From: a virus | Taxonomy: Duplodnaviria; Heunggongvirae; Uroviricota; Caudoviricetes | Strand: one strand, 5' to 3' | DNA length: 14,279 nucleotides | Virus record (IMG/VR): IMGVR_UViG_3300029079_000040 | Shown here: positions 4,876 to 8,356 of the stretch, in pieces | Position numbering within the stretch: position 1 is the stretch's first letter | How the letters are laid out: each line of letters begins with the position of its first letter | Position numbers and translations under genes: made by a program | The notes under the pieces: model-generated | What the model was told of the DNA's origin: nothing | The model's input: the letters and a program-made list of their open reading frames with translations, nothing else | Databases searched by the model: none

Positions 4876-5341
4876 TGAAAATTCCTCAAGTTGGAGAGTT
4901 CTGGAACATTAAGGCGAGGTGGCAGTAATGCACCATCTGTAATCTTTTGATACTGACGTAATCGGGCCTGATGTGCAACGCCTTGCAAGTATGTAACTCA
5001 TTGAAAACGATCATTTTTATCTATTGACATCAAATGGCAAACTGTCATTGTGCGGCTATGGCAAGTGGCAAATGCTTATAAATCATATGGATATAAATAG
5101 TACAGAAAGAGTTGTTTTCTCTAGGATATGAGTATACGCCCAATGCTGATTGGTTGAATTTTGTTCTTGTTTTAAAGGGTAAGAGTTTAAAGTGTTGGCA
5201 GTGATGTATTGGATAGTTAGAATTGCTGTGGGTGCTTGAGGCTATCTGCCTCGGGCATGAACACCAAAGGTAGATAGAGAAAAGCCCCAGTTAACATTAC
5301 GCGTCCTGCAAGACGTTTAACATTAATCTGAGGCCATATCT

Positions 5342-5401
5342 ATGCGACACATAGAGATTAGCCTCTTACGGACCGAAAGGTCAAGGAGAAGCAGGCTATG
5401 A
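5342..5401 (+). CDS. Short leader ORF (19 codons) ending in ATGA overlap with the hok start; possible mok-like coupling frame
   Basis: ATG 5342 to TGA 5399-5401, overlapping hok ATG 5398-5400. By analogy to mok/hok translational coupling; weak. Confidence 0.25.
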   Translation: MRHIEISLLRTERSRRSRL

Positions 5402-5523
5402 AGCAGCAAAAGGCGATGTTAATCGCCCTGATCGTCATCTGTTTAACCGTCATAGTGACGGCACTGGTAACGAGGAAAGACCTCTGCGAGGTACGAATCC
5501 GAACTGGCAGACGGAGGCTCTGA
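5398..5523 (+). CDS. hokD: Hok/Gef-family type I toxin (HokD/RelF-like N-terminus), 41 aa as read; C-terminus diverges or is frameshifted
   Basis: Translation MKQQKAMLIALIVICLTVIVTALVTRKDLCEVRIRTG-RRRL. The first 37 residues match HokD/RelF as I remember it. AGGAG 9 nt upstream. Canonical Hok proteins continue ...QTEVAVFTAYEPEE; here the +1 frame reads QTEALIRRLLI. Confidence 0.65.
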   Translation: MKQQKAMLIALIVICLTVIVTALVTRKDLCEVRIRTGRRRL

Positions 5524-5605
5524 TTCGTAGACTACTAATCTGAGTAAAAGACCCAGCGGGGAAAGAACCACGCCGGGACTAGTTAATAAGATATTTATAG
5601 CGTGG

Positions 5606-5947
5606 CTATTCTTTTTTTGCGGTATAGACTTTTTCGCCTGAGAAGTCTGGAGCTACCCAAAAGTTAATATTAAACTGAGCATCATCGCTTAGTTCAACAC
5701 GGTGCCAGTATTGTGGTGGGCTTGTTGCAAAAGCGCCAGCATTAATGACTACTTTTATCTCCGGTTCAGTAGCATTCTCATCAGCAAAACCATAATATGT
5801 TACAGTACCTTCCATCACGCATAACTGTCCAAAAACACCTGCTGCTGTATTATGATGTGTTAATAACGCTGAAGGTACGTTCTCTTTTGTGAAGAACGGA
5901 GTTGAGCGTTTGATTACCCAGTCTTTAGGAATTCTCTTGTGTGTCAT
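5606..5947 (-). CDS. YeaR-like protein (DUF1971, tellurite-resistance-related family), 113 aa
   Basis: Track ORF 5606..5971; start preferred at MTHKRIPKDWVIKRSTPFF (ATG 5947) with GGGAGGTG 5 nt upstream. Aligns by eye with chromosomal YeaR (RSTPFW..., FNIDFFVAPE-like motif FNINFWVAPD). Confidence 0.7.
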   Translation of the reverse strand: MTHKRIPKDWVIKRSTPFFTKENVPSALLTHHNTAAGVFGQLCVMEGTVTYYGFADENATEPEIKVVINAGAFATSPPQYWHRVELSDDAQFNINFWVAPDFSGEKVYTAKKE

Positions 5948-5961
5948 AACCACCTCCCATA

Positions 5962-5986
5962 AAACATGCATTATAAATGCACCTTT
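5962..5986. promoter_or_regulatory. NsrR-box-like palindrome ATGCAT-TATAA-ATGCAC immediately upstream of the YeaR-like gene
   Basis: Sequence AAACATGCATTATAAATGCACCTTT compared with the NsrR consensus AAGATGCATTT-n-AAATGCATCTT (established for E. coli, including the chromosomal yeaR promoter). The match is judged by eye. Confidence 0.35.
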
Positions 5987-6314
5987 TTGAGGGTTATGTC
6001 AAGCTGTTATGAAACACATAATTGATATGTTGATTAGAGGAGAAGATAGAATCAATATGGTTGTTTTTCGTATAACTATTTGTTTTACTTTTAGTTTGTG
6101 CATTCTGTGTGTTAGGAATAACTTATTAAAGTTTAACTAAAAAATCTCGATATAGTCCGCATAGATTACTGTTACTGAATCTTATTGTGTGCATTAGTTG
6201 TGTTCTGAAATTTCAATTTAATTACTTATGATATATTTTTAACGATAAATGTTTTCCGGGTGAAAGACAGTGGGGGATGAGATAAGCAATATATCATTAA
6301 TCTTGATTATTTCC

Positions 6315-6376
6315 AGGATGCCTTTACTGTGCATATAAATAAATCATATACGCATCAAATAATGTAAAGGCATCCT
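6315..6376. repeat. Perfect 13-bp inverted repeat AGGATGCCTTTAC / GTAAAGGCATCCT separated by 36 nt of AT-rich sequence
   Basis: Read directly from the sequence (6315-6327 and 6364-6376). The loop contains TGTGCATATAAAT; the right arm is followed by TTTTAG. Confidence 0.9.
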
Positions 6377-6814
6377 TTTAGATATATCTTATCAAATGTT
6401 AATGATTTGAGTGGGAAACATGATTCCAGAAACTAATCATGCGGCTACTTTATAAAAATAATGCCCATATAAAACAGCCAGCGAAAAGGATTACGGATAA
6501 AAAAGGAGCGAGATGTGCATAGTTGTTATTTTCCATGTTTAACCACCTTAAATAATTGATGATGACGGGATGTGCATCTGTAATGCTTTTGTTGAAATGT
6601 TATGATAAAAAAGAACTTTTTCATAACATTAAAATGTAATTTATCTAATCGTTTTTAATAATAAGTGTTGTATTTCTATCCTTGTATCAGCTATTTGATA
6701 TGTAGTGTTTGTTCATGTTATGTGGAGCTTTACACCATAGCCAGTTTATTTATACTTTATTCGTCAGCCTGAACAACTGGCATCTGCTGCACTGCGCCAT
6801 CGAGAGATTGAGAA

Positions 6815-7704: not shown

Positions 7705-8243
7705 TTTACCCAACGAATACAGGAAAAAGCGGAGAACACCTTCGTCTCGCCACGCTGGAAAGTGTCTGGATTCAGGGCAAACTGCGTATGTGGGGGCGCT
7801 GGTCGTATATTGGCGGTGGCAGGTCAGGAAATATGTTCAATCAGTTGTTGGCATCCAAAAAATTGACGAAAACAGCCATCAATGAAGCCCTGCGCAGAAT
7901 GAAAAAAGCGGGAATAGAGAAAGCTGAGCTGGAAGCGTTTTTGCGAGAGATGATCAACGGCAAGCAAAAGAGCTGGCTGGCGCATTGTACTGATGCAGAG
8001 GCGTTATGTATTGATCGAGTCATAAGTGAGGTGCTGGCAGAGCATCCTGGATTGATTAGTGTCCTCCGGCAACGGTATGAAGGACGGGGGATGACTAAGC
8101 GCAAAATGGCTGAATTGCTAAATGATGCACATCCTGAGTGGTGTTTTAGCACATGCGAAAAGCGAATTGCTAATTGGTTGGCTGTTGCTGAGTATGCCCT
8201 ATATATTCCCATGCGAGAATCATTTGCTCAAAAAATAGCTTGA
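7701..8243 (+). CDS. Late-gene antiterminator Q-like protein, about 180 aa from a GTG start
   Basis: Track ORF 7581..8243; preferred start is GTG 7701 (AAGGAGGG 5 nt upstream, GTGA overlap with the ybcO-like stop). Position directly upstream of a promoter-plus-terminator unit and the lysis cassette. Family assignment (phage Q antiterminator) is by context and partial recollection. Confidence 0.55.
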   Translation: MIYPTNTGKSGEHLRLATLESVWIQGKLRMWGRWSYIGGGRSGNMFNQLLASKKLTKTAINEALRRMKKAGIEKAELEAFLREMINGKQKSWLAHCTDAEALCIDRVISEVLAEHPGLISVLRQRYEGRGMTKRKMAELLNDAHPEWCFSTCEKRIANWLAVAEYALYIPMRESFAQKIA

Positions 8244-8270: not shown

Positions 8271-8326
8271 CGGTATGCTTCGCAAAGCTGTATCGCGAGG
8301 CGAACCAAGCGCATGAACTTTACCAG

Positions 8327-8356
8327 AACCCGCCATTGAGCGGGTTTTGTTGTTTC
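8327..8356 (+). terminator. Intrinsic terminator, tR-prime analogue downstream of Q
   Basis: AACCCGC-CATTGA-GCGGGTT stem-loop followed by TTTTGTTGTTTCT. Confidence 0.55.

What the first reader, a model, noticed from the sequence alone, without database searches (positions are those of the whole stretch)
6315..6376. Perfect 13-bp inverted repeat with a 36-nt AT-rich spacer
AGGATGCCTTTAC (6315-6327) and its exact reverse complement GTAAAGGCATCCT (6364-6376) would form a long-stem hairpin in RNA or a cruciform or dimeric protein-binding site in DNA. The spacer contains a TATAAAT -10-like hexamer, so the repeat could bracket or occlude a promoter. The right arm is followed by TTTTAG, so it might also serve as an unusual large-loop terminator or sRNA 3-prime end.
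Basis: seen in the sequence. Interest (0 to 1): 0.45.

Follow-up and report, generated by a model that had tools for sequence, protein, structure and literature searches.

The report
Terminator-like hairpin at prophage cargo boundary
The inverted repeat is real and folds into a stable hairpin at the right edge of a cargo-gene insertion in an E. coli Rac-like prophage, where it is most likely a weak, atypical transcription terminator or simply a neutral palindrome, so it is ordinary rather than a new regulatory device.

Summary
The 13-bp perfect inverted repeat (6315-6327 / 6364-6376) exists as described and is non-random. It is the outer stem of a longer imperfect palindrome.

It lies in an 843-bp AT-rich, unannotated gap of a Rac-like lambdoid prophage of E. 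coli. To its left is a minus-strand yeaR-like (DUF1971) cargo gene. To its right is the DUF1367-YbcO-Q late-regulator block.

Copies exist only in E. coli/Shigella prophages and are at least about 92% identical. The perfect 13/13 stem is specific to the window's lineage. The commonest haplotype has a mismatched outer stem and a perfect inner stem. There is no covariation signal, and the hairpin is no more conserved than its flanks. IS1 has inserted into it twice independently.

On the + strand its T-tail is terminator-grade and invariant, but the stem is too long and loose. On the minus strand it is not a terminator. It sits 74 nt from the stop of a previously unannotated, strongly conserved 28-codon minus-strand ORF. 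In sister prophages, canonical terminators of hokD or iteS occupy that position.

Best reading: a weak +-strand terminator or insulator at a cargo boundary (confidence about 0.4). Main rival: a functionless quasi-palindrome (about 0.3). The promoter-occlusion and protein-operator readings are unsupported. Interest is low.

The parts
6315..6327 (+). Left arm of the inverted repeat, AGGATGCCTTTAC (outer stem, 5' side on the + strand)
   Evidence: Varies in relatives: AGGATACC, AGGGTACC, AGGACACC, AGG-TACC.
6328..6363 (+). Spacer. It holds inner stem TGTGCATAT (6328-6336) / ATATACGCA (6346-6354), apical loop AAATAAATC (6337-6345) and a 9-nt asymmetric internal loop TCAAATAAT (6355-6363).
   Evidence: Fold. 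In the commonest haplotype the inner stem is a perfect TGTGTATAT/ATATACACA, extended to 11 bp in the fold.
6364..6376 (+). Right arm, GTAAAGGCATCCT (outer stem, 3' side on the + strand)
   Evidence: Relatives have GGCGTCC, GGTGTCC or AGCGTCC.
6376..6390 (+). T-rich tail TTTTAGATATATCTT directly after the stem on the + strand
   Evidence: Tail score 4.28, within the range of benchmark terminators. The first nine bases (TTTTAGATA) are invariant in all 11 haplotypes; one lineage has a substitution at 6386.
6291..6305 (+). Left outer flank (ATCATTAA..TTGAT) that pairs with 6391-6405 and extends the palindrome to about 115 nt
   Evidence: Folds. This flank lies in the 57-bp segment missing from the short variants, whose own left flank (TTAACGATAAATATTT) can also pair with the right flank.
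6391..6405 (+). Right outer flank (ATCAA..TTAATGAT) that pairs with 6291-6305
6258..6314 (.). 57-bp segment present in the window and GF47 lineages and absent from the commonest lineages. It ends exactly at the left arm and is bounded by the short direct repeats TTTCCGGG / TTTCCAGG.
   Evidence: Alignments; E. coli hits that start at window 6310.
6450..6536 (-). Unannotated 28-codon ORF (MENNNYAHLAPFLSVILFAGCFIWALFL) with Shine-Dalgarno AAGGTGG (6543-6549), 6 nt from the ATG. The hairpin lies 74 nt downstream of its stop on the minus strand. Its stop codon marks the boundary (6449/6450) between the cargo unit and the conserved right-hand module.
   Evidence: 28 codons in all 147 loci, with 12 protein variants, including the DNA type that is about 75% identical. 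The module is present in 1177 of 5426 E. coli genomes.
5606..5947 (-). yeaR-like DUF1971 cargo gene. Together with the AT-rich DNA and the hairpin it forms the inserted unit (about 5576-6449).
   Evidence: Pfam DUF1971, 3e-26. Chromosomal homologues at about 80% aa identity in many genera lack the gap. The hok 3' end has been replaced.

Best explanation
The repeat is the base of a long, imperfect RNA hairpin. On the + strand, which is the direction of the phage's early rightward transcription, it acts as a weak and atypical Rho-independent terminator or insulator at the right edge of a cargo insertion.

The insertion spans about 5576-6449. It consists of the minus-strand yeaR-like DUF1971 gene, AT-rich DNA and the hairpin. 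It replaced the 3' end of hok, including the canonical hok terminator that abuts the same conserved module in sister prophages.

Proposed mechanism: + strand transcripts form the GGAUGCC...GGCAUCC stem just before UUUUAGAUAUAU, and a fraction are released there. These transcripts could be read-through from pR or hok, or could start inside the AT-rich DNA. Termination would limit antisense transcription into the convergent 28-codon ORF and unprogrammed read-through into the DUF1367-YbcO-Q operon, which has its own conserved promoter-like element at 6729-6756.

Shown: the structure, its stability in all lineages, the tail quality, strand asymmetry, position and genomic context.

Inferred: that transcription reaches it, that termination occurs, and which transcript is affected.
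For: - The hairpin is stable in every haplotype: -19.8 to -23.8 kcal/mol on the + strand, z <= -4.3.
- The + strand T-tail score of 4.28 equals those of clear terminators in the window and in sister loci (2.9-4.6). The minus-strand tails are poor at 2.3.
- The first nine bases of the tail (TTTTAGATA) are invariant in all 11 haplotypes.
- Sister prophages are homologous from window 6449 rightwards. Immediately left of that boundary they carry canonical terminators: hokD CCCGC-TTCG-GCGGG-T-tract in L146 at 1464-1481, and the iteS bidirectional terminator in L041 at 2955-2988. By a strict rule, 30 of 90 loci without the hairpin have one.
- The window's hok has lost that terminator.
- All phage early genes from ydaT to Q are on the + strand, so + strand transcription through the site is expected during development.
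Against: - The stem is too long and loose. Its dG per nt is 0.29-0.37 against 0.56-0.79 for benchmark terminators, giving a composite score of about -4 to -11 against +11 to +36. The coefficients of that score were recalled from memory, so only the relative values are meaningful.
- The tool's terminator scan does not call it. There are only four consecutive U.
- There is no covariation: all measures equal their shuffled means.
- The arms and spacer are at least as variable as flanking non-coding DNA: 0.052-0.066 against 0.028-0.049.
- The commonest haplotype has an A-C mismatch in the outer stem.
- IS1 has inserted into the hairpin twice independently, so it is dispensable at least for carriage of the prophage.
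- No + strand gene upstream within the unit is established. The 43/48-aa ORF has no homologues outside the module.
Confidence: 0.4

Rival explanations
1. A functionless quasi-palindrome. On this view the structure is an accident of history in AT-rich, horizontally acquired cargo DNA, for example an old inverted duplication. It drifts, and it may be partly 're-perfected' by template-switch mutation, which is known to act at quasi-palindromes in E. coli (established knowledge, not tested here). It persists only because all copies are young.
For: - All copies are at least about 92% identical and confined to E. coli/Shigella prophages.
- There is no covariation beyond shuffles.
- Diversity in the hairpin is equal to or higher than in the flanks.
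- Different lineages are 'perfect' in different parts. The outer stem is perfect in the window and the inner stem in the commonest haplotype. Variable sites cluster at paired positions: L5:R9 is T:A, T:G or C:G, and L6:R8 is G:C, A:C or A:T. This fits templated mutation as well as it fits selection.
- There are two independent IS1 disruptions, single-copy arm-breaking variants in L122 and L127, and a 57-bp indel abutting the left arm.
Against: - A stable hairpin is retained in every lineage with similar total energy despite different substitutions.
- The orientation-specific good T-tail and the position equivalent to real terminators would be coincidences.
Confidence: 0.3
2. A minus-strand RNA element. 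On this view the hairpin lies in the 3' region of the mRNA of the 28-codon ORF, 74 nt past its stop, and upstream of the co-directional yeaR-like gene. It would serve as a 3'-end stabiliser after Rho-dependent termination or processing, or as an RNase III site that controls decay of that mRNA, in the manner of lambda sib retroregulation.
For: - The minus strand folds better: -28.1 kcal/mol, z = -6.3. With flanks it reaches -37.4, z = -4.9.
- The ORF upstream of it on that strand is clearly real: 28 codons in 147 of 147 loci with a conserved Shine-Dalgarno sequence.
- The combined stems (13 + 8-10 bp plus flank pairing) approach RNase III substrate length.
- The segment 3' of the hairpin on the minus strand is C-rich and G-poor (CUCAUCCCCCACUGUCUUUCACCC), which is rut-like.
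Against: - There is no U-tract on the minus strand: tail score 2.3, composite about -34 to -38.
- The C-rich segment and the outer flank pairing lie in the 57-bp piece that most lineages lack.
- In most sister prophages the ORF does without this hairpin.
- The same lack of covariation and the IS1 disruptions apply.
Confidence: 0.15
3. The 3' end of a small + strand RNA. This is a special case of the terminator reading. A transcript would start near 6240, from the promoter-like CTGAAA-16-TATGAT at 6205-6232, and end at the hairpin. That gives an sRNA of about 140 nt, or about 83 nt in the short variants.
For: - The promoter-like site (9 of 12) is found at 6205-6232, and its hexamers are conserved in relatives.
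- A hairpin followed by U-rich sequence is the usual sRNA 3' end.
Against: - Promoter-like hits here are no more frequent than in shuffles.
- The 57-bp indel removes most of the putative sRNA body in the majority of lineages.
- There is no Rfam match, even at E <= 10, other than chance miRNA or snoRNA hits.
- There are only four U at the 3' end.
Confidence: 0.1
4. A DNA-level site: either a dimeric or looping protein operator, or a cruciform that occludes a promoter in the spacer.
For: The arms are perfectly symmetrical in the window. There is a TATAAAT in the spacer.
Against: - The arms differ between lineages and are not kept symmetrical.
- The half-site does not recur elsewhere above chance: 3 matches at 2 or fewer mismatches including the two arms, with 18 of 200 shuffles reaching 3.
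- No -35 partner for the TATAAAT was detected.
- The 49-bp centre-to-centre spacing is atypical.
Confidence: 0.05

Closest known systems
Rho-independent (intrinsic) terminators at moron/cargo boundaries of lambdoid phages, such as the hok mRNA terminator and the iteS terminator at the homologous junction in sister prophages
   Same: The stem is directly followed by a T-rich tail on the strand of early rightward transcription. It occupies the same position relative to the conserved 28-aa-ORF module. It sits at the edge of an inserted cargo unit.
   Different: The hairpin is 60 nt long, with a 9-nt apical loop and a 9-nt internal loop, instead of a compact GC-rich stem of 5-10 bp with a loop of 3-8 nt. 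Its energy per nucleotide is about half. It has only four consecutive U. It is not called by the consensus scan.
Lambda nin-region terminators (tR2-tR4) upstream of Q
   Same: It lies between the replication genes and the Q-type antiterminator gene on the early rightward strand. If active, it would limit read-through to Q.
   Different: There is no sequence relationship. It belongs to an exchangeable cargo unit rather than to the phage backbone: most relatives with the same Q module lack it. Whether this phage has an N-like antitermination system was not examined.
Lambda sib/tI retroregulator (RNase III-sensitive hairpin 3' of int)
   Same: It is a long interrupted stem located 3' of a gene (the 28-aa ORF on the minus strand). 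Its extended form depends on flanking sequence.
   Different: There is no evidence of RNase III cleavage or of alternative terminated and read-through transcripts. The flanking extension is absent in most lineages.
Quasi-palindromes that act as template-switch mutation hotspots in E. coli
   Same: It is an imperfect palindrome whose variable positions cluster at paired sites, and whose complementarity is 'perfected' in different parts in different lineages.
   Different: No mutational-spectrum data exist here. The pattern is equally compatible with weak selection for stability.

Membership tests
Rho-independent terminator | Stable stem-loop with a G+C-rich stem base | tested here: inconclusive
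   The base GGAUGCC/GGCAUCC is G+C-rich, and the total energy is -17.6 to -21.6 kcal/mol for the 59-60-nt hairpin. However, dG per nt is 0.29-0.37 against 0.56-0.79 for seven benchmark terminators.
Rho-independent terminator | Compact hairpin (loop of about 3-8 nt, uninterrupted stem) | tested here: not met
   There are 36 nt between the arms. With the inner stem there is still a 9-nt apical loop and a 9-nt internal loop. It is not detected by the consensus scan.
Rho-independent terminator | U-rich tract immediately 3' of the stem | tested here: met
   On the + strand, UUUUAGAUAUAUCUU has a tail score of 4.28, within the benchmark range of 2.9-4.6. On the minus strand it is not met: 2.3.
Rho-independent terminator | Lies at the 3' end of a transcription unit | tested here: inconclusive
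   It occupies the position held by the hokD and iteS terminators in sister prophages. No upstream + strand gene within the unit is established.
Rho-independent terminator | Transcript 3' ends map to the U-tract | not testable with these tools
   No Term-seq or 3'-RACE data are available for a carrier strain.
Any curated RNA family (Rfam 15) | Covariance-model match at or near the gathering score | tested here: not met
   Only sok (5230-5400) passes in the window. At E <= 10 the hairpin gives only a chance mir-3688 hit: 19 bits against a gathering score of 84.
Structured functional RNA in general | Compensatory base-pair changes beyond what relatedness gives | tested here: not met
   94.6% of cells are paired, against a shuffled mean of 94.5%. 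There is 1 pair with a double change, against a shuffled mean of 1.0. The covariation score is 0.097 against 0.093. Power is low because there are only 11 haplotypes, all at least 92% identical.
Dispersed repeat / MITE (REP, ERIC-like) | Multiple copies per genome in different contexts | tested here: not met
   There is one place per genome in all 465 E. coli genomes that have it. No matches were found in plasmids, or in phages other than three identical ones.
Palindromic protein operator | Half-sites conserved and kept symmetrical; recurrence of the half-site in the element | tested here: not met
   The arms vary asymmetrically between lineages, and the half-site does not recur above chance.
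sib-type RNase III retroregulator | Extended duplex of about 20 bp or more located 3' of the regulated gene | tested here: inconclusive
   There are 13 + 8-10 bp interrupted by a 6-9-nt internal loop, 74 nt after the stop of the 28-aa ORF on the minus strand. The flank extension is missing in most lineages.
sib-type RNase III retroregulator | RNase III cleavage that changes upstream mRNA stability | not testable with these tools
   This needs a comparison of rnc mutant and wild-type hosts.

The most novel reading that the evidence does not exclude
The hairpin is the shared 3' element of a convergent pair. One partner is the conserved but never-annotated 28-aa hydrophobic protein gene on the minus strand, possibly a type I toxin-like or membrane-active peptide that heads the late-regulatory region of more than 1100 E. 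coli prophages. The other is a + strand RNA that ends at the hairpin. Overlapping 3' ends or RNase III cleavage of the long duplex would set the level of the small protein, in the manner of the 3'-overlapping type I toxin-antitoxin pairs of Bacillus prophages or of lambda sib.
Probability: 0.07. Interest if true: 0.55.

Novelty: new member of a known kind. Interest (0 to 1): 0.2.

Why it matters
If the hairpin terminates + strand transcription, it shows how an exchanged cargo unit brings its own insulator when it replaces the native hok terminator. That insulator would protect the downstream late-regulator (Q) operon and a convergent small gene from read-through. This is a small but concrete point about how lambdoid mosaics stay functional.

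By itself the hairpin is of limited interest. It is shallowly distributed, not demonstrably constrained, and dispensable in some carriers.

The surroundings are more useful. A sharply bounded cargo/defence hotspot lies just upstream of the Q-region operon. A conserved, unannotated 28-codon gene marks its right border. A phage-borne yeaR-like gene appears to have kept an NsrR operator, which would make it a nitric-oxide-responsive moron.

Tried and rejected
1. Rfam at gathering and at E <= 10 gave nothing relevant. No tRNA or tmRNA was found.
2. I looked for diverged relatives of the hairpin module, and none were more than about 8% diverged. The searches were:
   - a genome-contig search by the flanking DUF1971 protein, which returned chromosomal yeaR homologues without the gap;
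   - distant blastn against phages and plasmids;
   - a metagenome scan anchored outside the arms.
3. The covariation test was null.
4. The TGTGCAT motif occurs five times on the + strand of the gap. I considered it as a protein-binding repeat. Each site is altered in at least one sister lineage, so I did not pursue it.
5. The 43/48-aa + strand ORF (6009-6140) was considered as the gene terminated by the hairpin. It has no homologues outside the module, its substitutions are mostly nonsynonymous, and its stop codon is not conserved. It remains unconvincing.
6. The EHEC prophage anti-sRNA loci (PMC4104026) lie downstream of pR', not at this site.
7. K-12 Qin annotation: the hokD-rem gap is only 216 bp and nothing is annotated there.
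It has no NCBIfam hit, and the exact sequence is absent from the protein collection.
9. The whole-window Markov simulation gave an implausible mean and was discarded. Only the gap simulation is used.
10. An integron attC-like site was considered from memory and dropped: the arms do not fit the GTTRRRY core and there is no integrase nearby.

Full report
**Observation**

AGGATGCCTTTAC lies at 6315-6327 and its exact reverse complement at 6364-6376, with 36 nt between them. TATAAAT is at 6334-6340, and TTTAG follows the right arm.

It is the only perfect inverted repeat of 13 nt or more with a spacer of 60 or less in the window. In first-order Markov simulations of the 843-nt AT-rich gap that contains it, such a repeat arose in 0.3% of trials.

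The 76-nt core folds at -22.7 kcal/mol on the + strand (z = -5.4) and -28.1 on the minus strand (z = -6.3).

The 13-bp repeat is only the outer stem of a larger imperfect palindrome:
- An inner stem, 6328-6336 with 6346-6354.
- A 9-nt apical loop.
- A 9-nt asymmetric internal loop.
- Flank pairing between 6291-6305 and 6391-6405.

**Context**

The window is a Rac-like lambdoid prophage of E. coli. It is 100% identical to many RefSeq chromosomes and 99.9% identical to induced phages vB_EcoS-666R9, 673R7 and 613R10. The gene order is:
- the end of cro, then ydaT, O-like, DnaC-like, DUF1627, DUF977 and a hypothetical gene, all on the + strand;
- KilA-N on the minus strand;
- hok/sok (Rfam sok at 5230-5400);
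- a DUF1971 gene on the minus strand (5606-5947);
- an unannotated 843-bp gap of 28-33% G+C;
- DUF1367, YbcO and a DUF1133 Q-type antiterminator on the + strand;
- a pR'/tR'-like pair, the lysis genes and trkG.

The repeat lies in the middle of the gap.

**What the gap is made of**

1. DUF1971 is a yeaR-like gene. Homologues at about 80% amino-acid identity are chromosomal in Kluyvera, Citrobacter, Klebsiella and Vibrio, and none of them has the gap next to it. The phage copy is therefore captured cargo.
2. Homology to a second, much commoner prophage type starts exactly at window 6449. That type is about 74% identical and occurs in 708 E. coli genomes.
3. Position 6450 is the stop codon of a minus-strand ORF of 28 codons (6450-6536, MENNNYAHLAPFLSVILFAGCFIWALFL), preceded by AAGGTGG-N6-ATG.
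   - The ORF is 28 codons long in all 147 loci examined, with 12 protein variants and a conserved Shine-Dalgarno sequence, across DNA that is only about 75-80% identical.
   - It is annotated nowhere. It is absent as an exact sequence from a collection of 15 billion proteins, and it has no family match.
   - I take it to be a real small hydrophobic protein gene.
4. Left of this ORF is an exchange hotspot. In different genomes it holds iteS, hokD with NACHT, AbiH or other genes, a P-loop NTPase, SIR2, QueH or IS elements.
5. In the window the hok gene is truncated. It has lost the canonical hokD terminator, which in hokD-type prophages abuts the 28-aa ORF module.

The unit from about 5576 to 6449 (yeaR-like gene, AT-rich DNA and hairpin) is therefore an insertion that replaced the hok 3' end. 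The hairpin sits 73 nt from its right edge.

**Comparative evidence on the hairpin**

The hairpin module is in 465 of 5426 complete E. coli genomes, always once per genome. It is also in Shigella, 34 IMG/VR contigs and 17 metagenome contigs. Nothing more than about 8% diverged was found.

The 57 copies give 11 haplotypes.
- The perfect 13/13 outer stem belongs to the window's lineage.
- The commonest haplotype has AGGATACC paired with GGCGTCC, which gives one A-C mismatch and one wobble. Its inner stem is perfect (TGTGTATAT/ATATACACA).
- Pair L5:R9 occurs as T:A, T:G and C:G. Pair L6:R8 occurs as G:C, A:C and A:T.

This looks compensatory, but the formal count is null. Cells paired are 94.6% against a shuffled mean of 94.5%. 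There is one double change against a shuffled mean of 1.0. The covariation score is 0.097 against 0.093.

Diversity along the gap shows no extra constraint:

| Segment | Diversity |
|---|---|
| Arms | 0.052-0.059 |
| Spacer | 0.066 |
| 6141-6257 | 0.049 |
| 6377-6449 | 0.028 |
| Right-hand module | 0.012-0.020 |

Other variation:
- Single copies carry arm-breaking changes (L122 and L127).
- A 57-bp indel bounded by short direct repeats ends exactly at the left arm.
- IS1 has inserted into the hairpin twice independently, once in the inner-left stem (L005) and once in the right arm (L130).

Against pure drift, every lineage still folds into a stable hairpin of similar energy: -19.8 to -23.8 on the + strand and -22.3 to -28.1 on the minus strand, with z <= -3.5. 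The first nine bases of the tail are invariant.

**Terminator test**

I scored the hairpin against seven clear terminators from the window and the sister loci.

| | T-tail score | dG per nt | Composite score |
|---|---|---|---|
| Hairpin, + strand | 4.28 | 0.29-0.37 | about -4 to -11 |
| Hairpin, minus strand | 2.3 | 0.39-0.42 | about -34 to -38 |
| Benchmark terminators | 2.9-4.6 | 0.56-0.79 | +11 to +36 |

The composite score is of the d'Aubenton-Carafa type. Its coefficients were recalled from memory, so only the relative values should be used. The consensus scan does not call the hairpin.

The element is therefore strand-asymmetric in the right way, but it is borderline as a terminator.

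At the homologous place, sister prophages have the hokD terminator (L146 at 1464-1481) or the bidirectional iteS terminator (L041 at 2955-2988). By a strict rule, 30 of 90 loci without the hairpin have a canonical + strand terminator within 140 nt of the ORF stop. The other 60 fail the strict rule, and those I inspected have weaker hok-3'-end hairpins.

**Other readings**

- Promoter bracketing is not supported. No + strand promoter-like site uses the TATAAAT. The two minus-strand 9-of-12 hits lie in a region with fewer hits than shuffles.
- A protein operator is not supported. The arms vary asymmetrically, and the half-site does not recur above chance.
- A mobile repeat is excluded by copy number.
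- A small + strand RNA starting near 6240 is possible but unsupported, and most of its body falls in the 57-bp indel.
- A minus-strand role, as a 3' stabiliser or RNase III site for the 28-aa ORF mRNA in the manner of lambda sib, remains possible. The minus strand folds better and the ORF is real. However, there is no U-tract, and most carriers of the ORF lack the hairpin.

**Verdict**

The most likely function is a weak, atypical + strand terminator or insulator at the right edge of a cargo insertion (confidence about 0.4). A functionless quasi-palindrome is nearly as likely (about 0.3). It is a new instance of a known kind of element and of low interest.

The more valuable results are incidental:
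- the conserved unannotated 28-codon gene that marks a cargo/defence hotspot upstream of the Q-region operon;
- the NsrR-box-bearing yeaR-like moron;
- the conserved TTTACA-16-TATACT element upstream of the late-regulator operon.

Noticed in passing
window 6450-6536 (minus strand), SD at 6543-6549: An unannotated 28-codon ORF (MENNNYAHLAPFLSVILFAGCFIWALFL) with a polar N-terminus, a roughly 20-aa hydrophobic tail and a strong Shine-Dalgarno sequence. It is exactly 28 codons in all 147 loci examined, with 12 protein variants, across DNA only about 75-80% identical. Its module is in 1177 of 5426 complete E. coli genomes. No pipeline has ever called it. It may be a small membrane protein or a type I toxin-like peptide.
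   Followed up: partly
window about 5576-6449 and the junction at 6449/6450; loci L003, L004, L006, L041, L139-L146: The site immediately left of the 28-aa ORF module, upstream of the DUF1367/YbcO/Q or rem-like/DUF968/RusA genes, is a sharply bounded cargo/defence hotspot. In different prophages it holds iteS (an S8 anti-phage peptidase), hokD with NACHT, AbiH or 'beta family' genes, a P-loop NTPase, SIR2, QueH, an MFS transporter or IS elements.
   Followed up: partly
window 5963-5985: An 11-1-11 palindrome, AACATGCATTATAAATGCACCTT, lies just upstream of the phage-borne yeaR-like (DUF1971) gene (start 5947, SD GGAGGTGG). It matches the NsrR operator (the best CFT073 site is AAGATGCATTTAAAATGCATCTT; PMC5320621). 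This suggests the moron is nitric-oxide responsive, like chromosomal yeaR.
   Followed up: partly
window 6729-6756: A promoter-like TTTACA-16-TATACT (10 of 12) lies about 60 nt upstream of DUF1367. The element is unchanged in the roughly 75%-identical prophage type, and even where the downstream genes are rem-like/DUF968 instead of DUF1367. This suggests the Q-region operon has its own promoter.
   Followed up: partly
window 6097, 6188, 6328, 6514, 6571: TGTGCAT occurs five times on the + strand within the 843-nt gap, against three times (on either strand) in the other 13.4 kb. Two of the sites extend to TGTGCATTnnnTGTGTT. Each site is altered in at least one sister lineage, so it may be lineage-specific or chance.
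   Followed up: partly
window 5398-5523 and 5230-5400: The hok gene is shortened to 41 codons. Compared with hokD it carries indels (from about 5505) and has lost the 3' end of the hok mRNA, including its terminator. The sok/hok leader still matches Rfam strongly at 101 bits. The hok/sok system is probably decaying.
   Followed up: partly
L005 about 1713-2500 and L130 1-53: There are two independent IS1 insertions inside the 62-bp hairpin, in different haplotype backgrounds. In L005 the insertion has the target duplication GTGTATATA. The hairpin may be an IS1 target hotspot.
   Followed up: partly
window 6596-6630: A second inverted repeat, AATGTTATGATAAA / TTTTTCATAACATT (14 nt, 93% complementary, 7-nt loop), lies between the 28-aa ORF and the DUF1367 promoter-like site. 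It is only partly conserved in the diverged type.
   Followed up: no
window 6009-6140 (+): A 43-aa ORF with a hydrophobic core lies divergent from the yeaR-like gene. It is 48 aa in sister lineages because the stop codon differs. It is annotated as hypothetical in phage 666R9 and has no homologues outside this module. Its coding status is doubtful.
   Followed up: partly
window 8178-8207 and 8324-8349: A promoter-like TTGGCT-18-TATATT at the end of the Q gene is followed by a strong terminator (CAGAACCCGC..GCGGGTTTTG plus a T-tract). This is the expected pR'/tR' arrangement for Q-dependent late transcription.
   Followed up: no
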